Origin: Phycisphaerales bacterium
GTDB lineage: Bacteria; Planctomycetota; Phycisphaerae; Phycisphaerales; UBA1924
DNA: 64,000 nucleotides
NCBI GenBank assembly: GCA_030149165.1
Contig: JASBRY010000007.1
Span: 31,433-95,432, forward strand
Direction: 5' to 3'
In this document: piece after piece, positions 6,734 through 49,985 of the stretch
Layout of the letters: the number at the start of each line of letters is the position of its first letter
Position numbering within the stretch: the stretch's first letter is position 1
Position numbers and translations under genes: made by a program
The notes under the pieces: model-generated
Databases searched by the model: none
What the model saw: the letters and a program-made list of their open reading frames with translations, nothing else
Told to the model about the DNA's origin: nothing

Positions 6734-8641
6734 ATGCCCCACTCGAGTGACGACACATCCCCCGGCGATCACCAGTCCAGTGACCTCCTCGCCCAAGCGG
6801 GGAATATTTCAGGCGCTGAGCGTGAGTTCTTCTCGCCGATGCCGGATGGATATGTGCCAGGCAAACACAAGTATGTCGCGATCCTCGGCACAGTCATGTC
6901 GGGACTCGGGAAGGGGATCTTCTCATCGTCCATGGCCAAGGTCCTCAAGGACAAAGGTTTATGCGTCGCACCGATCAAGCTTGAGGGATACCTGAACATC
7001 GATTCAGGGACGCTGAATCCATATCGCCACGGCGAGGTCTTCGTGCTCGAAGACGGCACCGAGTGTGACATGGACCTCGGAACCTACGAGCGTATGCTCG
7101 ATCAAGACCTCACCAAACGCAACTTCGTCACAGCTGGACAGATCTACTCCGAGATCCTCGATCGAGAGCGTCAGGGTGTGTATCTCGGTCGCGATGTTCA
7201 GATGATCCCCCATGTCACTGGAGAAGTGAAACGCAAGCTCCGCGAGCTCGCGATCCGTGGTGATGGATCAGGTCCCGCCGACATCGTCTTCGTCGAAGTG
7301 GGTGGAACAGTCGGCGACTACGAGAATGGTTTTTACATCGAAGCGCTCCGCGAACTCGCGTTCGAGGAAGGGCCGGGATCGGTCTGCTTTGTCGCGCTGA
7401 CTTATGTCATCGAGCCGCAGGCATTGGGTGAACAGAAATCCAAAGCCGCACAGCTCGGGATCAAGCGACTGATGGAATCGGGGATCCAACCCAACCTCAT
7501 CGCGTGCCGAGCGGAGAACCCAGTCGAGCACAAGGTGCGTGAGAAGATCGCGATGTTCTCCAATGTCCCGATGGAGCGTGTGTTCTCGATGCATGATCGA
7601 GACAGCATCTACAAGATCCCTGACGAACTCCGCGCTCAGGGACTCGACCGAGAGATTCTTTCGACACTGAGTCTCCACGATCGCGTCGATGCGACAGCAG
7701 AGGATCGAGCACGCGTCCGATGGTCCACATTTGTTGATGGACTGACCGCAGAGCGCATGCAGACGGTCAAGATTGGTATCCTCGGCAAATACGCCGAGCT
7801 CCGCGACGCGTACGCATCGATCGACAAAGCGCTCGAGCACTGCGAAGCACACTTCCGGACCAATGTCGAGCAGGTCTGGATGGACACCACCGAAATCAAC
7901 GACGCCAACGCCGCCGATCGTCTTCGTGACCTCGACGGCGTTATTGTTCCAGGAGGGTTCGGTTCCCGAGGAGTTGAAGGGAAGATCTCTTGCGTCAAGC
8001 ACTGCCGAGAGAACGCGATCCCATATCTCGGGATCTGTCTCGGATTCCAGGTCGCTGTGGTCGAGTTCGCTCGCAATGTGCTCGGGATCAAGGACGCGTA
8101 TTCCACAGAGTTCGATCCGATGACTTCTTCGGCGCTAATCTCTGAACTGCCGGACCAAAAGAAAATCGAAGGGCTCGGCGGGACCATGCGCCTCGGCGCC
8201 CAAGATGTCCAGATCACTCCCGGCTCGCTCGCGTCATTCCTCGCCGACGGCAAGACCTCGATCCATGAGCGTTTCCGTCACCGCTACGAGGTCGATCCGA
8301 CTTATATTGAGCGTCTGGAAGCGGGAGGATTGATCTTCTCAGGCCGTCACCCTGAGCAGCCGATCATGCAGATCCTCGAGCTCCCCTCGCATGTCGATGC
8401 GGATGATTCGGTGGCGCCATCGGAACCCATCACCCACCCATACTTCATCGGCGCTCAGTTCCATCCGGAACTAACCTCGCGTCCGCTCACGCCTCAGCCG
8501 ATGTTCATGGGACTGGTCGCGGCGTCGCTCAAGCATCGCTTCGAGCACAACGAGCAGCAATGGGAACAGATCCTCCGAGCTTGTCCGATCCTGAAGCGTT
8601 GGCTCCGCACACCCAACGGGCAGGCGCAAACCACAAGTTGA
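6734..8641 (+). CDS. pyrG: CTP synthase
   Basis: KYVAILGTVMSGLGKGI, NIDSGTLNPYRHGEVFVLEDG and the GATase domain motifs LGICLGFQ and GAQFHPE are present. The start is uncertain: ATG 6734 or ATG 6839. The track start 6719 is TTG. Confidence 0.93.
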   Translation: MPHSSDDTSPGDHQSSDLLAQAGNISGAEREFFSPMPDGYVPGKHKYVAILGTVMSGLGKGIFSSSMAKVLKDKGLCVAPIKLEGYLNIDSGTLNPYRHGEVFVLEDGTECDMDLGTYERMLDQDLTKRNFVTAGQIYSEILDRERQGVYLGRDVQMIPHVTGEVKRKLRELAIRGDGSGPADIVFVEVGGTVGDYENGFYIEALRELAFEEGPGSVCFVALTYVIEPQALGEQKSKAAQLGIKRLMESGIQPNLIACRAENPVEHKVREKIAMFSNVPMERVFSMHDRDSIYKIPDELRAQGLDREILSTLSLHDRVDATAEDRARVRWSTFVDGLTAERMQTVKIGILGKYAELRDAYASIDKALEHCEAHFRTNVEQVWMDTTEINDANAADRLRDLDGVIVPGGFGSRGVEGKISCVKHCRENAIPYLGICLGFQVAVVEFARNVLGIKDAYSTEFDPMTSSALISELPDQKKIEGLGGTMRLGAQDVQITPGSLASFLADGKTSIHERFRHRYEVDPTYIERLEAGGLIFSGRHPEQPIMQILELPSHVDADDSVAPSEPITHPYFIGAQFHPELTSRPLTPQPMFMGLVAASLKHRFEHNEQQWEQILRACPILKRWLRTPNGQAQTTS

Positions 8642-9295
8642 TCACAGCTGAGCTTTCAAAGCTTGGGCACTGTCATAAAGAATAATCGCGCTCAGTATGT
8701 CGGGCTTTCCGAAGGTCACGCAGCAGTTGTTAACCAGCGTCTGCGCATGCAGCATCGCGTCGAGTTGCGTTGATTGTTCTGCCGACTCGATCGAACGCAC
8801 AATGAACGCGTGAACTCCCCAAGGGCGATTGATCCCGTTGTCAGGCTGTAGCTCTCGTGTATGCCAATCGATGAGCTGATCGATGCGAGGCCGAAACTCT
8901 CCACCCGATTGAGAATCCAGATGCCAGAGAGCATGCAGAGCGCAGAGCTCAATCAGTGTTCGGTGCTCGATCGCATACGCATCGGATTCAACCAGTCCCC
9001 CTTCAGATTGAATTCGTCCGCTCCAATCCTGATTGCCTTCGGCAAGACTGTTCCAGAGTCGAGTGTCCAGATCGTGCGATCGATCCGAAGTCGACACACG
9101 CACTCCCAGCACTCGGCCCAGCAACGGAGCGTCCGTCGCGCGCCGGCATCCAAACTCGTCTTGGAACTCTTCGATGAAAGAACGCTTCGTGTTCTCGTCC
9201 CCATCCAGCGGGACTTGATCCATCAGTTCTCGGATCAGTGATTCCAGATGCGAGATCCACTGCTCGATCGTTGGGATATTGGGGGGATTCTCCAC
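8642..9295 (-). CDS. Hypothetical protein
   Basis: 217-aa ORF filling the pyrG-gcvT gap. Its stop abuts the pyrG stop (TGATCA). I recognise no motif. Confidence 0.5.
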   Translation of the reverse strand: MENPPNIPTIEQWISHLESLIRELMDQVPLDGDENTKRSFIEEFQDEFGCRRATDAPLLGRVLGVRVSTSDRSHDLDTRLWNSLAEGNQDWSGRIQSEGGLVESDAYAIEHRTLIELCALHALWHLDSQSGGEFRPRIDQLIDWHTRELQPDNGINRPWGVHAFIVRSIESAEQSTQLDAMLHAQTLVNNCCVTFGKPDILSAIILYDSAQALKAQL

Positions 9296-9340: not shown

Positions 9341-10501
9341 ATGACCCAGACCACACTCAAGACGACCCCGCTCCACAAATACCACCTCGAATACCACGCT
9401 CAAATGGTGGATTATGCTGGATGGGAAATGCCCATCAAGTACGAGACCTCGATCCACGATGAGCACACGCACTGTCGTACGAATGGATCACTCTTTGATG
9501 TCTCCCACATGGGACGATTGTCCGTAAAGGGCAAAGGCGCGGCTCGGCTTTTCGAGCGAGTTTGTTCGCGACGCATCGGGGACATGCAGCACGGGCAGTG
9601 CCGGTACTCATTCATGTGCAACGAATCGGGTGGGGTGCTCGATGATGTGATCGTTAATCGGATGGACGACAACGAGTTCCTCGTTGTGGTCAACGGCGCC
9701 AATCGCGAAAAGATCATCGCTCATATGCAGCAGGTCATCAACGATCGTGGGTTCGATGTCAAGTTCGAGGATCGCACAGAAAAGACAGCGATGGTTGCGA
9801 TTCAAGGCCCAAAGGTCATGGACCTGCTCAGCAAGGTCTCATCGGAACTCGCAGAACTTAAGCGGTTCAGATTCATCGTCAAGAACCTGATGATCATGAA
9901 GGTCATCGTTGCACGCACGGGCTACACAGGAGAGAACGGCGTCGAGGTTATCCTGCCCGCATCCGCGGTCTCTATGGCGATCAATCTGCTCCAGAAAGAA
10001 GCCGTGAGCATCGATTCCGATCTGGATCTCAAACCCTGTGGCCTTGCGGCACGCGACACGCTGCGTCTGGAAGCCGGGCTCCCACTCTATGGACACGAGT
10101 TGGACGAAGAGACCTCCGCGCTCGCAGTGGGAATGCCGTTTGCGATGAACCTCGATAAGTCGGTCGAGGCCGACGGCGAAACATTCATCGGACAGGAAGC
10201 ACTTCTTGAGCAGCAAGCCAGCGGCGGTCCCGGTCTGTCTCTCGTCGGGATCGAGATCGATTCGAAGCGTACCGCACGCCAAGGCATGAATGTACTCTCT
10301 GGTGACGAATCAGTTGGACGAGTCACATCGGGGTGCATGTCCCCTACGCTCGAGAAGTCCATCGCGATGGCGTATGTAGATTCCGCTCATGCCGCAGCAG
10401 GGACCAAAATCACAATCGACGCGGGCCGTACCCAACTCGAAGGGACAATCGTGCCGTTGCCGTTCTACAAGGCACCGAAACCCGCTCCGAAGTCGAGCTG
10501 A
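9341..10501 (+). CDS. gcvT: Glycine cleavage system aminomethyltransferase T
   Basis: TPLHKYHLEYHAQMVDYAGWEMPIKY and FDVSHMGRL are typical of GcvT. The ATG is at 9341; the track start 9335 is TTG. Confidence 0.92.
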   Translation: MTQTTLKTTPLHKYHLEYHAQMVDYAGWEMPIKYETSIHDEHTHCRTNGSLFDVSHMGRLSVKGKGAARLFERVCSRRIGDMQHGQCRYSFMCNESGGVLDDVIVNRMDDNEFLVVVNGANREKIIAHMQQVINDRGFDVKFEDRTEKTAMVAIQGPKVMDLLSKVSSELAELKRFRFIVKNLMIMKVIVARTGYTGENGVEVILPASAVSMAINLLQKEAVSIDSDLDLKPCGLAARDTLRLEAGLPLYGHELDEETSALAVGMPFAMNLDKSVEADGETFIGQEALLEQQASGGPGLSLVGIEIDSKRTARQGMNVLSGDESVGRVTSGCMSPTLEKSIAMAYVDSAHAAAGTKITIDAGRTQLEGTIVPLPFYKAPKPAPKSS

Positions 10502-43190: not shown

Positions 43191-43826
43191 TCACTCCCGC
43201 CGTCTTCTTCCCACGCTCATCGAAGCGATGCACAAGCAGCCCAGCCCACCCGGAGCCGGGACCGCTACGCCCGCGACATGCTGCGTGTAGAAGGTGAATG
43301 TGCTGCCCTCCTCGAAATACGCCTCAGCGATCCCGTCGGAGTCCTGGAAGTTCTCGTAGAACTCGATACGCATCGAATACTGCTCGTACCCAAAGTCGAT
43401 GGTATTGCCGAGTTCATCGAGCGGGATGATCCCATTGATCGTTTGGTTGTCTACCGGACTGGTGTACTCGGGGGCAAAGTTGAAGTCGACCTCGTCGCCA
43501 AGATTGATCGATGCATCCGCACCCCAGCTCGGCTCGATCGTCGTCAGCACAAGGTTGTACTCAAAGCTGAGCAGCGTGTTCGCGCTGGGATCAGGCGGGT
43601 TGCCCTTGGGGTCTTTGGGAATATGGAAGAGCGTAAGAAAGTCATTGTCCGGATCACCAAGCGCATCGATCATCCGGATCCCCGAAACATCGACCTCAGT
43701 GGACCAAATTCCAGACGCGAGCTGAACACTCGATACTCGCTCGAGCAGCTCGTCCGATTCAAACACTGATCCCGAAGCAAGTGCCGATGAGATCGCGAGT
43801 AAAGAAGCCGACAAAACAGATTTCAT
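43191..43826 (-). CDS. PEP-CTERM sorting-domain protein
   Basis: I placed the start at MKSVLSASLLAISSALASG, a signal peptide. The C-terminus is VPAPGGLGCLCIASMSVGRRRRE. The ORF is open in frame for a further 143 codons upstream, to 44255; see findings. Confidence 0.7.
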   Translation of the reverse strand: MKSVLSASLLAISSALASGSVFESDELLERVSSVQLASGIWSTEVDVSGIRMIDALGDPDNDFLTLFHIPKDPKGNPPDPSANTLLSFEYNLVLTTIEPSWGADASINLGDEVDFNFAPEYTSPVDNQTINGIIPLDELGNTIDFGYEQYSMRIEFYENFQDSDGIAEAYFEEGSTFTFYTQHVAGVAVPAPGGLGCLCIASMSVGRRRRE

Positions 43827-44351
43827 AATGATCGCCCCATGGTTTCCGTATATCGATGTAGAGACTATACAAGATTCATGGCAGGTCGTAAAGACAAAAA
43901 TATCAAGCGAGTGATCTGCACACACCCGCTCGTTCCTGAATGGCGGGAATCTATTTTCGCCTCCCATGCGCTTCGAGGTCCACCCCGACGGCCGCGTGAT
44001 CGTGCAGAATGTGCCGGTATCGGGAACGACCCCGATCATCTCGCTGAACACAGTGTCGTTTATTGTGGAGTGATTAATCGCGCCCGACCATCTGATGGCG
44101 ATTGAATCATCATCGAGTTCTGATATCAGATCATGCATCGAGGCCGCTCGTACAAGCACCAGTGTGTTCAGATTGTGCTTGAGTAAGATTGGGTACATCT
44201 TGGAGATCAACCACAAGGATTCGCTGGGGGGTATCGAAGCAATTAGCGATTCCAAGGCAAGGTGCTGGTCAGCTTAGTCTAATATTGCAAATAACTTTCT
44301 AATATTCAGCGAAGACATCTAGCTTTCGGTATCCGATCTTGTTTTAAGTTT

Positions 44352-45341
44352 CTACCATGGTAATCTGTTGCCATCCAAGTCATGTGAGAAAATATCATCA
44401 ATTTCGGAAGAGAGATGGCTTAGTGTATTTCTTTTATCGTTGAGATAATGCCAAAATACTGCCGCATCTCTCTCTGACATCTCGCCAGTTGTAAAATCAA
44501 GAAGCCTTTGGGTCGCATAGTCAAAGTCACTCAATTCGTGAACAAGTACTGTGCAGTTTTCTATGTTTAAAAATCTGGATGAGGCATGTTCTCGTATTTT
44601 TTCGCTAAGACTCTTCATTAATTCGAGGTGGATTCTCACATATTCAGTATTCTTGTTTCTTGTCCCCTCAGCAATCTTTGTGCAGAAGTACGATGTACAG
44701 TTGAACAGTGATAGCATTTTTGAGTCCTTGAATTTTTCTTTGTATTTGTAGTCGTCAGCCATTAGTTCTATACTCAATTTTTTGAGCAACGCTGTTAGTT
44801 CCTTTGACTGTATGCGTATTAGTTCTGGTACGGAAACATTTTCAAACACAACACCGTCCTTGTTTGTGATCATGATCGTCATCCCGTCGTTTGATATAGT
44901 GGGGCGTGAAATGTGACCTGCTGGTTTCGCATTTCCAGAGTTGTAATCTGATGGGTGCCCAATAGATCTATTTCGTAGATTTCTGATTCTATGTAATTTA
45001 GGGTGATCTGTTTCCCACTTGCCTTGAAAGAGTGGGTGTCCCAATGCGGTAGCTAGAGATTTGCATGCATCTTGCTGGACAAAGAGGGCTTGTAAAATGC
45101 CGTACAAATGTAGCAGTTGCCCCTGCCAAAGAGGCGGTTTGCTTCCGTTGAGGAACGAGTCTGCTACTCCGCATATGTCCTCAATTGCATCTAGTGCCGC
45201 GCAAATATGGAGCCAGCCTTCATGATTCGAGAGAAGTTTAGATTGCAGCGGATTCTCGTTGATTGAATCTCGGATGTGCTGTGCGGCATTGTACAGCGAT
45301 TGGATTTCATTTGAGATCTCAGATGTAGAATCTGCTACCAC
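44352..45341 (-). CDS. Orphan protein encoded on a low-GC island, with HEPN-like R-x5-H motif (function unknown)
   Basis: 329-codon ORF. Hand counts on four 60-nt lines gave 33-52 % GC, against 63 % for a 60-nt line (45361-45420) in the adjacent mutase gene. The GTG start at 45341 overlaps the mutase stop. The motif [14 protein letters not shown] lies at 44955..44975. Confidence 0.65.
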
Positions 45342-47047
45342 TCCGGCCCCCCGGTATACCGCCCATAAATATCCGCCATCGCCTGCACCATCTCGCCGAG
45401 TGTGCAGTTGGCCAGCGCCCCCTCAACCAGAGCCGGCATCACATTCTTGTTCGCTCGCGCATCCTCGCGGATGGTTTCGAGTGCGGCTTCGACCGCCGCG
45501 TCGTCACGCCGTGACTTGAACTCCGCGAGCCGTTCGTTCTGGACGCGTTCGACCTCCTCCGAGATCGTGAGGATATCGATCGGACGCTCCTCGTTGTCGT
45601 CCGTGTACTGGTTGACCCCAACGATGATCCGATCCCCGGCCTCGCACTCCTCGCTAAACCGGTAACTCGCCTCTGCGATCTGACGACGGAAGTACCCCTT
45701 GTGAATGCCGTTGACCGCGCCGCCCTCATCGATGCTCGAGGTCGTCGCGTGCTCAGGTTTCCAAGGGCCGCGCCCCATGTTGTCGATCTCCTCGATATAC
45801 GCGAGCGCCTCCGCTTCGATCTTGTCCGTGAGCTCCTCGATGAAGTACGAACCACCCAGCGGATCGACGGTGCGTGTGACCCCAGTCTCGTGCGCGAGGA
45901 TCTGCTGCGTGCGCAGCGCCACTGTCACGGCTTGCTCCGTCGGAAGCCCAAGAGTCTCGTCCATCGAATCGGTGTGCAGCGACTGGCACCCACCAAGCAC
46001 CCCAGCCATCGCTTGATACGCGACGCGGACAATGTTGTTGAGGGGTTGCTGCTCAGTGAGCGAGCATCCAGCGGTCTGGACATGCGTCTTCATGTACCAC
46101 GAGCGTTCGTTCTTCGCGCCGTAGCGATCCCGCATCATCCGCGCCCAGATCCGACGAGCGGCGCGGAGCTTGCAGATCTCCTCGAAGAACTCGTTGTGAG
46201 CATTAAAGAAGAACGACAGACGCGGTGCGAACTGATCGATATCCATCCCGCGAAGCAGACACGCCTCGACATACTCCATCCCGTCACGCAGTGTGAACGC
46301 GAGCTCCTGAGGAGCCGACGATCCCGCTTCGCGGATGTGGTATCCGGAGATCGAAACACTGTTCCATTTCGGTAGATGCTGCGACTGGAACTCGATCGTG
46401 TCCACGACCAGCTTGGTCGACGCCTCAGGCGGATAGATGAACTCGTTCTGCGCGTGGAACTCTTTGAGGATGTCGTTCTGGAGCGTCCCGCCGAGCGTGT
46501 CCCATCCGATGTTGCGTTGCTTTGCCATCGCGAGGTACATCGCCCAGATCACACACGCCGGGCCGTTGATCGTCTGCGAGACCGTCACCTGATCGATCGG
46601 GATGTCCGCGTACAAGCGATGCATGTCCTCGATCGTGTCAATCGCGACGCCGCACTTGCCGACCTCACCGATCGAGAGCATGTCGTCCGAGTCGCGTCCC
46701 ATCAGAGTGGGGAGGTCGAACGCGGTCGAGAGACCAGTGTTCGCTTTCGTCGAAGTTTTCGCGGCTTCGAGTAGGTACTTGAATCGCTGATTCGTGTCGT
46801 CCGCTGAACCAAATCCAGCAAACTGACGCATCGTCCACAAGCGTGTGCGATATCCCTGCGGGAACAAGCCGCGCGTGTATGGGAACTCGCCGGGATCGTT
46901 GATGTCACGCTCGAAGTTCTGCAGCGATTCCGGGAGATCTGCAGGCGTGTAGCTCGGATTCAGCACGATGCCGGAGATCGTGACCGCATGCGGGTCGATC
47001 GAAGCATTATCAAGTCCAGGGCCGGTAATCGATGTGGTGTGTGTCAT
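45335..47047 (-). CDS. Methylmalonyl-CoA mutase family protein (acyl-CoA mutase large subunit, substrate-binding domain only)
   Basis: [36 protein letters not shown] and [13 protein letters not shown] are present. At 570 aa it has no B12-binding domain attached. Confidence 0.93.
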
Positions 47048-47254
47048 GACGAACTTCCATTCAAAGGGGTGTCGCCAATTATATGCGGCTACACGCTCTC
47101 GGCACTATTTACAATGCCGTGGGTGTATTTGGGGATTATGAGACTACATTTGGGGATCTACTTGTGTTCTTTCCCGTATTGCTGTACATTCAAGATTGGC
47201 AAACATTCGTTTGCAATGGGTTTCACCAAACTCGTGGGTACACAGGAGTTCATC

Positions 47255-48595
47255 ATGCACGCAACCGCTTATTCCGCGTTGCTGCTCGCTGTCCTTTCAG
47301 GATCCGCCGCAGCGAACTCTGACCCCATCAAGCTCGATCCCACCGCCGCGAACATCCACCACGCCGGACACATCTACTTCAACATCGCAACCGGCGAAAA
47401 GATCACCACGATCATTGATACTGGGGATTTCCAATCACCAGCTGGTGCCACTGCTGGACGCGAAATCTGGATCGCCGACACCGGTGCTCAGTGTGCTGAC
47501 CAAGGGTTCTCGACTGAGTATTTCTTTGGTCTTGATGATCCATATCTTTCTTCTCCCAATACCTTGGGATCTGTGTGCTTTGACTGGGGTGATATCGCCC
47601 CAGACACGGTCGTCGATATGGTGCAGGTGCACTGGGTCTCGGATCATGCCGACACAGACACCGACTCCGACAGCATCGCCGACGGCATCGAAGGGTTCGC
47701 AGCTACATGGACATACTGGGATGCCATGAACGGGAGATCACCCCAGTTGGACTGTATTGCATTAACACTTATTCAGTTCCGACTAGAGAATCTGCCCGGT
47801 GAGTATCCAGAAGATACGGCAGCTTTGTCGATGTGGACCGCTGATATTGATCTTGGCGCATCGTTCGGCAGTTCCCTGACCTTTGAGATCGGTGACACAG
47901 ACTCTGACTTACAAGGCGCCAGTGTGCATAACCCTCGACTTGATCTCAATGACTTTGATTCAGATTCAATCAGTGATCTTGATCCAGACAATGATGGGCT
48001 CGCGGATTGGGGGTGGTCGATCCAGTTCATTCAACCAGGAGTTGTGGATCTTGACAACGCTGATGGTGATGATGACATCCATACGGGTCGTGATGGTGAT
48101 CTCGCCGCTCTTGCGACAGCGGGAATAGTCTTCGGATCACCGACTCCAGGACACGCGGAGTTGGACTCCGCCGGTGACTGGGTTTGGGTTGCTGACGGCC
48201 CAACTGCAGGTGTCACCGAAGACGCATTCGCTCTGGCTACCACTGATAACCCAGACGGCTCAGGTCCCATGACCATCGCAGGCACATTCTTCTTCGGAGG
48301 ACTCAACTGCGTTGCTGACCCCACCACAAGTCAATACACACCAGCCGCTCATTTCCAGGCTGTGCTCTATGGCGGGGAGTGCGTTTGCATCGTGGACTTC
48401 GCTGGTAACCCAGACGGAAGTCCCGACGGCCAACTCAACTTTCTCGACGTCTCAGCATTCTTAGCTGCGTTCGCACAACAAGACCCCGCCGCAGACTTCG
48501 CGGGAAATCCCGACGGCTCACCAGATGGTTTGTTCAACTTTGCAGATATCTCGAGTTATCTCGCCGAGTTCTCTGCAGGCTGTCCAGGGTGCTGA
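47255..48595 (+). CDS. Secreted Asp-rich protein, paralog A, with C-terminal dockerin-like module ending GCPGC
   Basis: An AGGAG lies 6 nt before the ATG at 47255. The signal peptide is MHATAYSALLLAVLSGSAAA. Conserved blocks are HHAGHIYFNIATGEK, VHWVSDHADTDTDSDSIADG and DNDGLADWGWSIQFIQPG. The tail is DFAGNPDGSPDGQLNFLDVSAFL...NFADISSYLAEFSAGCPGC. Confidence 0.85.
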   Translation: MHATAYSALLLAVLSGSAAANSDPIKLDPTAANIHHAGHIYFNIATGEKITTIIDTGDFQSPAGATAGREIWIADTGAQCADQGFSTEYFFGLDDPYLSSPNTLGSVCFDWGDIAPDTVVDMVQVHWVSDHADTDTDSDSIADGIEGFAATWTYWDAMNGRSPQLDCIALTLIQFRLENLPGEYPEDTAALSMWTADIDLGASFGSSLTFEIGDTDSDLQGASVHNPRLDLNDFDSDSISDLDPDNDGLADWGWSIQFIQPGVVDLDNADGDDDIHTGRDGDLAALATAGIVFGSPTPGHAELDSAGDWVWVADGPTAGVTEDAFALATTDNPDGSGPMTIAGTFFFGGLNCVADPTTSQYTPAAHFQAVLYGGECVCIVDFAGNPDGSPDGQLNFLDVSAFLAAFAQQDPAADFAGNPDGSPDGLFNFADISSYLAEFSAGCPGC

Positions 48596-48632: not shown

Positions 48633-49985
48633 ATGAATACCAGCAAAGTCATTCCGCTCGCTCTCGTTGCGTTAACCGGCTCCGTCGCCTCTGCAACAGA
48701 ACCCACCCAACTCGACCCCAAAGCTACCACCATCCGCCACGCCGGACACATCTACTACAACATCGCGACGGGTGAGAAGATCACTACGCTGATCGATTCT
48801 GGTGATCTGCAATCACCCGCCGATGCCACGCTTGGGCGCGAGATTTGGATCGCCGACACCGGGAACCCCTGCGCGGATCAAGGCTACTCATCAAGCTACT
48901 TCTACGCTCTAGATGATCCCGATGGGACCACCTCACTTTCTCTAAATGCCATCATGGTTGATTGGGGTGATATCCCGTTCAACACCGTTGTTGATTGTGT
49001 GCAAATCCATTGGGTGACTGATCACCAAGACACCGATACCGATTCAGACTCGCAACCTGACGGCGTATGGGGTCTGGGGGGCACATGGACCTATTGGGAT
49101 AGCTGTAACGGGAGATCTCCACTTGTCGAATGTGTGAGCATGCCGATTATCCAGTTCAAGTTCTCGTCATTGCTTGGCGAGTTCCCTTCTGATCCCAATA
49201 CGCTGACGAAATGGACCGCAGACATTGATCTTGCGATGGACTTTGCTTCATCGTTAACTTTTGAAATTGGAGACAATGACAGCGATCCACAGGGAGCCGC
49301 TGTATATAACCCGCGATCGGATCTCAACGATGCCGATTCAAACTCAGTCCCTGACATCGACATCGATCAAGACAACCTCGCAGACTGGTGTTGGTCAGTT
49401 CAGTTTGTCCAGCCGGGCACAATTGATCTTGATGATGCCGATGGGGATGATGATACATCGACCGGAATCGATGGTGACCCAACGGCGCTTGCAACAATTG
49501 GTATCGCATTTGGATCACCAACCCCAGGACATGCCGAGATCGATAGCATGGGAGATTGGCGTTGGATACCTGATAGTTTCACTGGTCCGACAGAAGATGC
49601 ATTCACTCTTGGGAGCACTCAAAATCCTGATGGATCAGGTGTGTTTATTCCCGCAGGCTCATTCGATTTCGGAGGTCTCAACTGCACCCCCGGACAGCCC
49701 GACGGCTACACACCAGCCGCCCACTTCCAAACAGTCCTTTACGGCCCATCAAGCCCGTGCGGGATCAGTTGCCCCTGGGATCTACCAAGCGAATCAAATC
49801 CAGGTGAATGCAACGGCGGGGATGGTCAACTGAACTTCATCGACATATCCAACTTCTTGTCGTTGTTCGCGGATGGAAACTTACTCGTGGACTTTGCCGG
49901 AAATCCAGACGGTTCGTCGGACGGCCAACTCAACTTCCTCGATGTCTCCGCATTCCTTTCAGGTTTCGCACAGGGATGCCCATAA
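48633..49985 (+). CDS. Secreted Asp-rich protein, paralog B, with C-terminal dockerin-like module ending GCP
   Basis: The signal peptide is MNTSKVIPLALVALTGSVASA. It has the same conserved blocks as paralog A (RHAGHIYYNIATGEK, IHWVTDHQDTDTDSDSQPDG). The tail ends ...NFLDVSAFLSGFAQGCP. Confidence 0.85.
   Translation: MNTSKVIPLALVALTGSVASATEPTQLDPKATTIRHAGHIYYNIATGEKITTLIDSGDLQSPADATLGREIWIADTGNPCADQGYSSSYFYALDDPDGTTSLSLNAIMVDWGDIPFNTVVDCVQIHWVTDHQDTDTDSDSQPDGVWGLGGTWTYWDSCNGRSPLVECVSMPIIQFKFSSLLGEFPSDPNTLTKWTADIDLAMDFASSLTFEIGDNDSDPQGAAVYNPRSDLNDADSNSVPDIDIDQDNLADWCWSVQFVQPGTIDLDDADGDDDTSTGIDGDPTALATIGIAFGSPTPGHAEIDSMGDWRWIPDSFTGPTEDAFTLGSTQNPDGSGVFIPAGSFDFGGLNCTPGQPDGYTPAAHFQTVLYGPSSPCGISCPWDLPSESNPGECNGGDGQLNFIDISNFLSLFADGNLLVDFAGNPDGSSDGQLNFLDVSAFLSGFAQGCP

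What the first reader, a model, noticed from the sequence alone, without database searches (positions are those of the whole stretch)
44256..45341. Low-GC single-gene island welded onto the stop codon of the mutase gene, encoding an orphan HEPN-like protein
**Composition**
- GC drops sharply exactly at the mutase stop. Four 60-nt lines inside the gene counted 33, 40, 33 and 52 % GC; one 60-nt line (45361-45420) in the adjacent mutase gene counted 63 %.

**Start codon**
- The 329-codon ORF has no in-frame ATG before codon 154.
- The only N-terminal start in the track is a GTG embedded in GAGTGGTAGCA. It therefore overlaps the last Trp codon and the TAG of the housekeeping mutase.
- A horizontally acquired gene thus appears to be co-transcribed with, and possibly translationally coupled to, a core metabolic gene.

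**Protein**
- The protein is helical-looking and contains [14 protein letters not shown] (R123-x5-H129, nt 44955..44975).
- This fits the R-x4-6-H signature of HEPN ribonuclease domains found in abortive-infection and toxin systems.
- No antitoxin, MNT or other partner gene is visible.

**Downstream spacer**
- The AT-rich spacer downstream carries TCTAATATT twice, 20 nt apart (44278..44286 and 44298..44306).
- No integrase or IS element is present.

**Interpretation**
- This is a candidate stand-alone defence or stress RNase of an undescribed type.
Basis: partly seen in the sequence, partly recalled or inferred. Interest (0 to 1): 0.65.

Follow-up and report, generated by a model that had tools for sequence, protein, structure and literature searches.

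The report
Unannotated defence-slot gene after mutase
A foreign, low-GC gene sits directly after a core metabolic gene in a marine Phycisphaerales bacterium, in a slot where related strains carry known anti-phage genes, and it belongs to a large unnamed protein family that is probably a new single-gene phage-defence effector.

Summary
A 329-codon ORF (44352-45341, minus strand) has 42% GC against 55.6% for the window (z = -5.6). Its only usable start is a GTG that overlaps the last codons and the stop of the methylmalonyl-CoA mutase gene.

- **Not an orphan.** The gene belongs to a family of more than 1,000 50%-identity clusters. No Pfam, NCBIfam, PADLOC or PDB match was found.
- **Motif conserved.** R123, N124 and H129 (RNxxxxH) are invariant or nearly so.
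- **HEPN not confirmed.** Foldseek on two high-confidence AlphaFold models, profile searches and HHalign all failed to link it to any HEPN family. Only the motif and its position at the end of a helix fit.

The strongest result concerns context. In the closest relative (mutase 98% identical), the same slot holds AbiTii instead. Across 80 Phycisphaerales genomes the slot holds many other defence genes, including ApeA, a CBASS-type cyclase and PDC-S02. They are mostly co-oriented and start within 70 nt of the mutase stop.

Family members elsewhere lie in defence islands, on a plasmid, and once as an integron cassette.

Verdict: this is mobile cargo in a defence hotspot and probably a new Abi-like effector. 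RNase chemistry is plausible but unproven.

The parts
44352..45341 (-). Cargo gene: 329-aa protein of a large unannotated family, with two helical modules and a three-strand beta insert
   Evidence: ORF listing. Homologs found. AlphaFold model with pLDDT 89.9 and pTM 0.81. GC 0.421, z = -5.6.
45333..45341 (-). First three codons (GTG GTA GCA). The GTG lies in the host-conserved Glu-Trp-stop sequence GAGTGGTAx, and sequence identity with the relative L005 runs to 45333
   Evidence: The C-terminus GGPEW* is conserved in nearly all of the 40 relatives printed.
45335..47047 (-). Methylmalonyl-CoA mutase large-subunit gene. It is the left flank and the presumed source of transcription. Its stop codon is at 45335-45337
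   Evidence: Pfam MM_CoA_mutase E = 1e-202 and TIGR00641.
44955..44975 (-). R123-N124-x4-H129 motif. R123 sits at the C-terminal end of helix 114-127 and H129 just after it
   Evidence: Invariant in A1 and at least 90% conserved in A3. Secondary structure from the models.
44733..45224 (-). Candidate HEPN-like core (residues 40-203). It comprises helix 40-65, helix 72-99 with Q89/Q90/D91, a short insert, helix 114-127 with the motif, a beta meander at 141-170, and helix 171-203
   Evidence: The topology rule comes from PMC3710099. No Foldseek support.
44355..44726 (-). C-terminal four-helix module (residues 206-329) with conserved Y218, K222, R256 and D315. A sensor or regulatory role is inferred
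   Evidence: The role is inference only.
43910..45332 (.). Segment with no nucleotide similarity to the closest relative L005, which has 1,700 bp with AbiTii and a SnoaL-like gene in its place
   Evidence: blastn breakpoints. ORFs, GC and Pfam for L005.
44052..44207 (+). Decayed remnant of the SnoaL-like gene that forms the right-hand neighbour of the slot in relatives. It contains in-frame stops
   Evidence: tblastn 50% identity over 52 aa, E = 4.5e-9, and blastn 81% over 85 nt.
44278..44306 (+). Two copies of TCTAATATT, 20 nt apart, in the 3' spacer. Function unknown
   Evidence: No structure in the spacer.
43191..43826 (-). Right-flank conserved gene: a 211-aa secreted protein whose true start is MKSVLS. 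The longer mechanical ORF running to 44255 is not supported
   Evidence: 88% identical orthologue in L005 at 9498-10133.

Best explanation
The gene is horizontally acquired cargo in a strain-variable defence slot that begins at the stop codon of the methylmalonyl-CoA mutase gene in a clade of Phycisphaerales (Planctomycetota).

**Shown**
- The slot holds different low-GC genes in different strains, and many of them are known or candidate anti-phage genes.
- The window's occupant belongs to a large, sporadically distributed, unannotated family.
- That family has lower GC than its surroundings in every host examined.
- Its members lie in defence islands, on a plasmid, and in one genome as an integron cassette.

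**Inferred**
- *Function.* It is a stand-alone abortive-infection-type effector.
- *Domains.* The N-terminal helical module carries the active site, built around the invariant R123-N124-x4-H129 and a conserved acidic/polar patch (D51, D55, Q84, Q89, Q90, D91). The C-terminal helical bundle keeps it inactive until infection is sensed.
- *Chemistry.* The most likely reaction is HEPN-like, metal-independent RNA cleavage that arrests the infected cell.
- *Expression.* The gene has no room for its own promoter. It is transcribed by read-through from the mutase gene. It is translated from the overlapping GTG, probably by termination-reinitiation.
For: **The slot**
- Window-L005 identity stops 2 nt past the mutase stop and resumes at 43909.
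- L005 carries AbiTii there (Pfam E = 5e-38, PADLOC E = 3e-39).
- About 36 of 80 relatives have a low-GC tract at the same place. About two dozen have a co-oriented ORF starting within 70 nt of the stop.
- Cargo includes PDC-S02, PDC-M34A/B, PDC-M19B, PDC-S15, PDC-S58, a CBASS-type cyclase/SMODS, ApeA, an Aga/DpnII-type REase, DUF4062, RelA_SpoT, FRG and HEPN_RiboL-PSP.
- Contigs from other metagenomes diverge at exactly 45335-45337.

**The family**
- It has 1,055 representatives and carries no annotation.
- Gene GC is below the flanks in 10 of 10 loci.

**Genomic contexts of family members**

| Locus | Context |
|---|---|
| L087 | MmeI, YhcG, Schlafen-like, helicase, T5orf172, NACHT island |
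| L002 | Next to AbiEii |
| L003/L004 | Next to an AAA-HNH gene |
| L086, L088, L091, L093 | Module with an ~880-aa protein and an N6_N4 methyltransferase |
| L092 | Type I R-M nearby |
| L090 | Marinobacter plasmid, near SIR2 |
| L094 | Integron cassette flanked by attC-like repeats |

**The motif**
- It is conserved.
- It sits at the end of a helix, with a conserved acidic residue in the preceding long helix and an insert between them. This matches the HEPN rule stated in PMC3710099.
- HEPN_AbiU2 is the commonest sub-threshold Pfam match (9 of 150 members, best E = 0.007).

**Integrity and recent spread**
- All family-conserved residues except Y76 are present.
- A second sample carries the same arrangement with one substitution in the ORF (T227I). 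There are only 4 differences across 43339-45574, while the flanks show more (about 1.5% in the mutase gene, by approximate count).
Against: - No HEPN family or structure was recovered. This holds for Pfam on the protein, 186 members and two consensus sequences, for PDB profiles, and for Foldseek against PDB and BFVD with models of pLDDT about 89.
- HHalign against a Swt1-like HEPN profile and an ApeA-like protein gave 0.1-0.2% probability.
- A 30-residue beta meander between the motif and the next long helix is not typical of HEPN.
- No PADLOC model matches.
- No phage, IMG/VR or RNA data bear on activity or expression.
- The sigma-70 and terminator scans are uninformative for this phylum.
- The defence role rests on association, not on an assay.
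Confidence: 0.55

Rival explanations
1. It is a defence effector with a different fold and different chemistry. The RNx4H resemblance to HEPN would be convergent or coincidental. The conserved Asp/Gln/Arg/His patch could serve another reaction, for example DNA or nucleotide hydrolysis, or binding of a ligand or phage protein.
For: - All fold and profile comparisons to HEPN failed despite confident models.
- Many more polar residues are conserved than HEPN RNases usually keep.
- The helices are long and there is a beta insert.
- The defence context is the same as for the main explanation.
Against: - The R-[N]-x4-H pattern, with a polar residue after the Arg, lies at the end of a helix and is followed by a loop. 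That is exactly the HEPN signature.
- Weak AbiU2 hits recur.
- HEPN families are known to be barely alignable outside the motif (PMC3710099).
Confidence: 0.28
2. It is a mobile accessory gene that is not anti-phage. Candidates include a selfish toxin-like gene, a stress RNase, or an auxiliary or regulatory subunit of restriction-modification systems that merely rides in variable regions.
For: - One subclade is always followed by an ~880-aa protein and lies near an N6_N4 methyltransferase. This suggests an accessory role there.
- Some members sit among housekeeping genes: L001 in the nadA-nadB operon and L095.
- Not every occupant of the slot is a defence gene. Erythromycin esterase, hydrolases and Sel1 proteins also appear.
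Against: - No neighbour is conserved across the whole family.
- Most contexts, and most annotatable occupants of the slot, are defence genes.
Confidence: 0.12
3. It is a silent or decaying insertion. The native start codon was lost on insertion, and the GTG overlap is an accident that gives little or no protein.
For: - Codons 1-3 lie in sequence shared with L005, so the start is supplied by the host and not by the cargo.
- The adjacent SnoaL-like gene has decayed.
- No expression data exist.
Against: - A 329-codon ORF is intact at 42% GC, where stop codons are frequent.
- Every family-conserved residue except Y76 is kept.
- The N-terminal length matches that of homologs, and the helix starts at residue 3.
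- The same ORF, with one substitution, occurs in a second sample.
Confidence: 0.05

Closest known systems
Single-gene HEPN abortive-infection proteins (lactococcal AbiD, AbiF, AbiJ, AbiU2; ApeA)
   Same: - Stand-alone gene of about 300 aa, mostly helical.
- Conserved R-[polar]-x4-6-H at the end of a helix.
- No antitoxin partner.
- Embedded in R-M and defence loci.
- AbiU2 is the only Pfam family that recurs among weak hits.
   Different: - No significant match to any of their Pfam or PADLOC models.
- No fold match.
- Beta meander after the motif.
- Extra conserved Asp/Gln patch.
- Second helical bundle at the C-terminus.
HEPN-MNT type II/VII toxin-antitoxin pairs
   Same: A possible HEPN-type toxin with the Rx4-6H motif.
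   Different: No MNT or any other conserved partner. The protein is also about twice the size of minimal HEPN toxins.
Defence hotspots between conserved genes (for example the P2/P4 hotspots of PMC9122126, and core-genome defence islands)
   Same: Fixed flanks with interchangeable, low-GC, diverse defence cargo. The same slot holds AbiTii, ApeA, CBASS and PDC systems in relatives.
   Different: - The slot lies on the chromosome of Phycisphaerales, directly at the stop codon of a core metabolic gene.
- It usually holds one co-oriented gene with 3-70 nt of spacer, so apparently no promoter of its own.
- No integrase, tRNA or attC is present.
Integron gene cassettes
   Same: A promoterless single-gene unit expressed from upstream. 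One family member (L094) is a genuine cassette between attC-like repeats.
   Different: The window copy has no attC-like element, and its spacer is unstructured. The array in L094 is unrelated to the mutase slot.

Membership tests
HEPN superfamily | Conserved Rx4-6H motif with a polar residue (N, D or H) after the Arg | tested here: met
   R123-N124-x4-H129. R and H are invariant in 36 sequences and at least 90% conserved in 150. N124 is at least 90% conserved in A1. The rule is stated in PMC3710099.
HEPN superfamily | [quoted passage not shown] | tested here: inconclusive
   The order of secondary-structure elements fits. However, Foldseek found no HEPN structure in PDB or BFVD (best E = 0.03-0.1, generic helical bundles). 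Model coordinates could not be inspected.
HEPN superfamily | Profile-level similarity to an established HEPN family | tested here: not met
   - Pfam: nothing for the protein or for two consensus sequences.
- Pfam on members: only sub-threshold HEPN_AbiU2 in 9 of 150.
- HHalign against a Swt1-like HEPN profile and ApeA: probability 0.1-0.2%.
- PDB profiles: none.
HEPN superfamily | Metal-independent RNase activity that depends on the Arg and His | not testable with these tools
   This needs biochemistry.
HEPN-MNT toxin-antitoxin | Adjacent minimal nucleotidyltransferase antitoxin | tested here: not met
   No MNT in the window or in 13 homolog loci. No neighbour is conserved across the family.
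Catalogued defence systems (PADLOC-DB v2) | Match to a system model | tested here: not met
   0 families at E<=10. Other occupants of the slot do match.
Defence-hotspot cargo | Conserved flanks with strain-variable, compositionally foreign content that is rich in defence genes | tested here: met
Integron cassette | attC recombination site downstream of a promoterless ORF | tested here: not met
   Met for the homolog in L094. Not met in the window.

The most novel reading that the evidence does not exclude
The family is a previously unrecognised class of single-gene anti-phage effectors. Its catalytic module is either a very divergent new HEPN clade or an independent fold that has converged on an R-N-x4-H site. 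In addition, the 3' end of the mutase gene in Phycisphaerales is a promoterless 'plug-in' defence slot, whose cargo is expressed by read-through and translational coupling to a core metabolic gene.
Probability: 0.3. Interest if true: 0.75.

Novelty: new variant of a known kind. Interest (0 to 1): 0.6.

Why it matters
- **A testable new family.** More than 1,000 sequence clusters spanning many phyla (Planctomycetota, Poribacteria, candidate-phyla-radiation (CPR) lineages, Flavobacteria, Marinobacter) have no domain model, no structure relative and no entry in defence catalogues. The family nevertheless has a confident predicted structure and two obvious catalytic residues to mutate.
- **A natural discovery list.** The slot after the mutase gene in a poorly studied phylum holds several occupants with no annotation at all: L008 (384 aa), L009 (176 aa), L057 (339 aa) and L018 (468 aa).
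- **A mode of expression.** Defence cargo can apparently be expressed without its own promoter, tied to a housekeeping transcript.

Tried and rejected
**Searches that found nothing useful**
- Pfam, NCBIfam, PADLOC and PHROGs on the protein gave nothing significant.
- PDB sequence and profile searches gave only coiled-coil noise.
- Foldseek on the whole model and on the 1-205 model, against PDB and BFVD, returned only generic helical bundles such as GPCR-BRIL fusions and adenylosuccinate lyase.
- Family consensus sequences against Pfam gave no HEPN hit.
- HHalign against a Swt1-like HEPN profile built for this purpose, and against an ApeA-like protein, showed no similarity.
- No RNA-seq run holds the locus.
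- Phage genomes and IMG/VR contain no relatives.
- Rfam and tRNA scans of the window found nothing.
- Promoter and terminator scans were uninformative.
- The ~880-aa neighbour found in one subclade has no PDB relative.

**Ideas rejected**
- *The 354-aa ORF 43191-44255 as a real gene.* Only its last 211 codons are conserved.
- *The TCTAATATT pair as a recombination site or attC.* There is no inverted symmetry between the copies and no structure.
- *A conserved partner gene.* None was found.

Full report
**1. What is there**

The minus strand of 44352-45341 carries a 329-codon ORF.
- **Start codon.** The first codon is the GTG in GAGTGGTAG. The mutase gene (45335-47047; Pfam MM_CoA_mutase E = 1e-202, TIGR00641) ends with Glu-Trp-stop on the same nucleotides, so the two genes overlap by 7 nt.
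- **No alternative start.** No other canonical start exists before TTG79, and the first ATG is codon 154. Only 27 start-less codons are open upstream.
- **Composition.** ORF GC is 0.421 against 0.556 for the window (z = -5.6). It is the only such stretch in 64 kb. GC3 is 0.42 against 0.77 in the mutase gene.

**2. Not an orphan**

- A word-indexed search found 36 homologs at about 30% identity and about 315 aa.
- The exhaustive search of 1.84 billion cluster representatives found 1,055 at E<=1e-3 and 573 at E<=1e-10.
- None carries a Pfam domain or a name other than 'hypothetical protein'. Hosts include Dadabacteria, Sungbacteria, Paceibacterota, Poribacteria, Flavobacterium and a Marinobacter plasmid.
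- The window protein has no hit in Pfam, NCBIfam, PADLOC, PHROGs or PDB sequences.

**3. Conserved residues and structure**

- In 36 sequences I53, Y80, G81, Q84, R123, H129, Q178 and Y218 are invariant.
- In 150 diverse members, at least 90% keep R24, D51, D55, Y76, Y80, G81, Q84, Q89, Q90, D91, A92, R120, R123, G128, H129, P130, Q178, Y218, K222, R256 and D315.
- The window protein has all of these except Y76.
- AlphaFold2 with the family alignment gives a confident model (pLDDT 89.9, pTM 0.81). Its elements are helices 3-27, 40-65, 72-99 and 114-126, a three-strand meander at 141-170, a long helix 171-203, and then a second bundle (216-228, 232-256, 264-284, 290-320). A separate model of residues 1-205 agrees.

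**4. Is it HEPN?**

*For.*
- The motif is R-N-x4-H, with a nearly invariant Asn after the Arg.
- R123 sits in the last turn of a helix and H129 just after it.
- A conserved acidic residue (D91) lies in the preceding long helix.
- A short insert separates the two helices.
- HEPN_AbiU2 is the commonest sub-threshold Pfam hit among members (1 of 36 and 9 of 150; best E = 0.007).

*Against.*
- Foldseek against PDB with both models, and against BFVD with the 1-205 model, found no HEPN structure and nothing below E = 0.03.
- Family profiles hit nothing in PDB.
- Family consensus sequences hit no HEPN model.
- HHalign against a Swt1-like HEPN profile that I built from a neighbouring hotspot gene, and against an ApeA-like protein, gave 0.1-0.2% probability.

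HEPN families are known to share little beyond the motif, so this does not exclude HEPN. Membership is nevertheless not demonstrated. I put HEPN-like RNase chemistry at roughly even odds, given that the gene is a defence effector.

**5. The decisive evidence is context**

*Closest relative.*
- The mutase identifies the organism as a Phycisphaerales bacterium. The closest genome (L005, OZ252285.1) has a 98% identical mutase.
- None of the 80 related mutase loci contains a homolog of the 329-aa protein.
- Nucleotide identity between the window and L005 runs through the mutase gene to 45333, which is 2 nt past the stop. It then vanishes and resumes at 43909 upstream of a shared secreted-protein gene.
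- In between, L005 has a different low-GC gene (GC 0.43) that starts 20 nt after the stop. It is an AbiTii protein (Pfam E = 5e-38, PADLOC E = 3e-39). A SnoaL-like gene follows it.
- The window retains only a decayed piece of that SnoaL-like gene at 44052-44207.

*The 80 relatives.*
- About 36 have a GC drop right after the mutase stop.
- About two dozen have a co-oriented ORF beginning 3-70 nt after it.

*Occupants identified.*

| Occupant | Locus, where assigned |
|---|---|
| DUF4062 protein | L010 |
| PDC-M34A/B (DUF5343 plus HEPN_Swt1) | L013 |
| PDC-S02 | L069 |
| PDC-M19B, PDC-S15, PDC-S58 | not assigned |
| CBASS-type cyclase (SMODS) | not assigned |
| ApeA | not assigned |
| Aga/DpnII-type restriction enzyme | not assigned |
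| RelA_SpoT, FRG, HEPN_RiboL-PSP, PNP_UDP_1, ORC-CDC6-like proteins | not assigned |

*Other metagenomes.* Contigs from related populations in other metagenomes match the mutase gene and then diverge at 45335-45337.

This is a defence hotspot whose left edge is the mutase stop codon.

**6. The family elsewhere**

In 10 of 10 loci the homolog has lower GC than its surroundings.

| Locus | Context |
|---|---|
| L087 (Flavobacterium) | Island with MmeI R-M, YhcG, a Schlafen-like ATPase, a helicase, T5orf172 and NACHT |
| L002 | AbiEii and a transposase |
| L003/L004 | AAA-HNH gene |
| L086, L088, L091, L093 (314-aa subclade) | Always followed by an ~880-aa protein and near an N6_N4 methyltransferase |
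| L092 | Type I R-M 3.6 kb away |
| L090 (Marinobacter plasmid) | Near SIR2 and IS elements |
| L094 | Cassette in an array of 16 regularly spaced ~200-nt attC-like repeats, with HigB- and BrnT-type toxin cassettes |
| L001 | Solitary, between nadA and nadB |
| L095 (CPR genome) | Among housekeeping genes |

No neighbour is conserved across the family. The gene is therefore an autonomous, mobile, promoterless-capable unit.

**7. Expression**

- The GTG belongs to host sequence. The C-terminus GGPEW-stop, and hence GAGTGGTAx, is conserved in nearly all relatives printed.
- Codons 1-3 lie inside the block shared with L005.
- The N-terminal length nevertheless matches that of homologs, and the first helix starts at residue 3.
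- An independent pipeline called the same 329-aa product.
- The overlap leaves no spacer, and the slot's other occupants have similarly tiny spacers. Read-through transcription and coupled translation are therefore the simplest reading. This is inference only, because no RNA data exist and consensus scans say little for this phylum.

**8. Population evidence**

- A second, independent sample has the same arrangement.
- Its ORF differs by one nonsynonymous change (T227I).
- Only 4 differences occur across 43339-45574, whereas the mutase gene further upstream and the right-flank gene carry many more.
- This pattern fits recent spread of the cassette between strains by recombination in the flanks. 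It argues against a decaying pseudogene.

**9. Verdict**

- The island, the welded start and the conserved Arg/His are real.
- 'Orphan' is wrong.
- 'HEPN' remains a reasonable but unproven mechanistic guess.
- 'Candidate stand-alone defence gene of an undescribed type' is well supported by hotspot and island context.
- The broader finding is the promoterless defence slot at the 3' end of the mutase gene in Phycisphaerales.

Noticed in passing
L005 7716-9415; also L010, L013, L069, L026 and other loci, just after the mutase stop: The 3' flank of the mutase gene is a defence hotspot across a Phycisphaerales clade. Occupants include AbiTii, DUF4062, PDC-M34, PDC-S02, ApeA, a CBASS cyclase and restriction enzymes. 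Several occupants have no annotation at all: L008 (384 aa), L009 (176 aa), L057 (339 aa, membrane-like) and L018 (468 aa, membrane-like).
   Followed up: partly
L094 2000-16936: An integron-like array of at least 16 cassettes, separated by ~200-nt attC-like repeats (TATAACCCGCGGCTCAAGG ... GCCTTAGCCGCAAAGCCGTTAKR). One cassette (8001-8936) is a homolog of the window gene. Others carry HigB/Gp49-HTH and BrnT toxin genes. An IS110 transposase lies at one end.
   Followed up: partly
L086 8001-15592; L088, L091 and L093 equivalents: In a 314-aa subclade, the homolog is always followed about 60 nt later by an ~880-aa protein. That protein has no Pfam or PDB relative beyond a faint ResIII hit. An N6_N4 methyltransferase lies a few kb downstream. 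This may be a multi-gene system that uses the family as one component.
   Followed up: partly
L001 935-5877: A homolog (GC 0.44 against 0.60) is inserted 58 nt after nadA, inside a nadA-nadB-nadC cluster. This is a second case of the family sitting directly behind a housekeeping gene in the same orientation.
   Followed up: no
window 44052-44207 (+): A pseudogene remnant of a SnoaL-like gene, with in-frame stops. The gene is intact in L005, L008, L010 and L019, where it forms the right-hand neighbour of the slot.
   Followed up: yes
window 43339-45574 compared with its flanks, in run X2: A second metagenome holds the same arrangement. It shows only 4 differences across this 2.2-kb segment but clusters of differences on either side (8 within 43236-43338, and several in the mutase gene). 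This suggests recent recombinational transfer of the cassette.
   Followed up: partly
P0019 (574 aa; alignment): One family member carries a 260-aa C-terminal extension of unknown nature. It could be a fusion or a read-through gene call.
   Followed up: no
window 46988-48595 (+) and 48633-49985 (+): Two tandem paralogous secreted proteins lie just upstream of the mutase gene, transcribed divergently from it. Each has repeated 'FAGNPDGSPDGQLNFLDVSAF' dockerin/EF-hand-like motifs at the C-terminus.
   Followed up: no
window 44278-44306: TCTAATATT occurs twice, 20 nt apart, and nowhere else in the 64 kb. Each copy contains the palindrome AATATT. No structure and no homolog explains the pair.
   Followed up: partly
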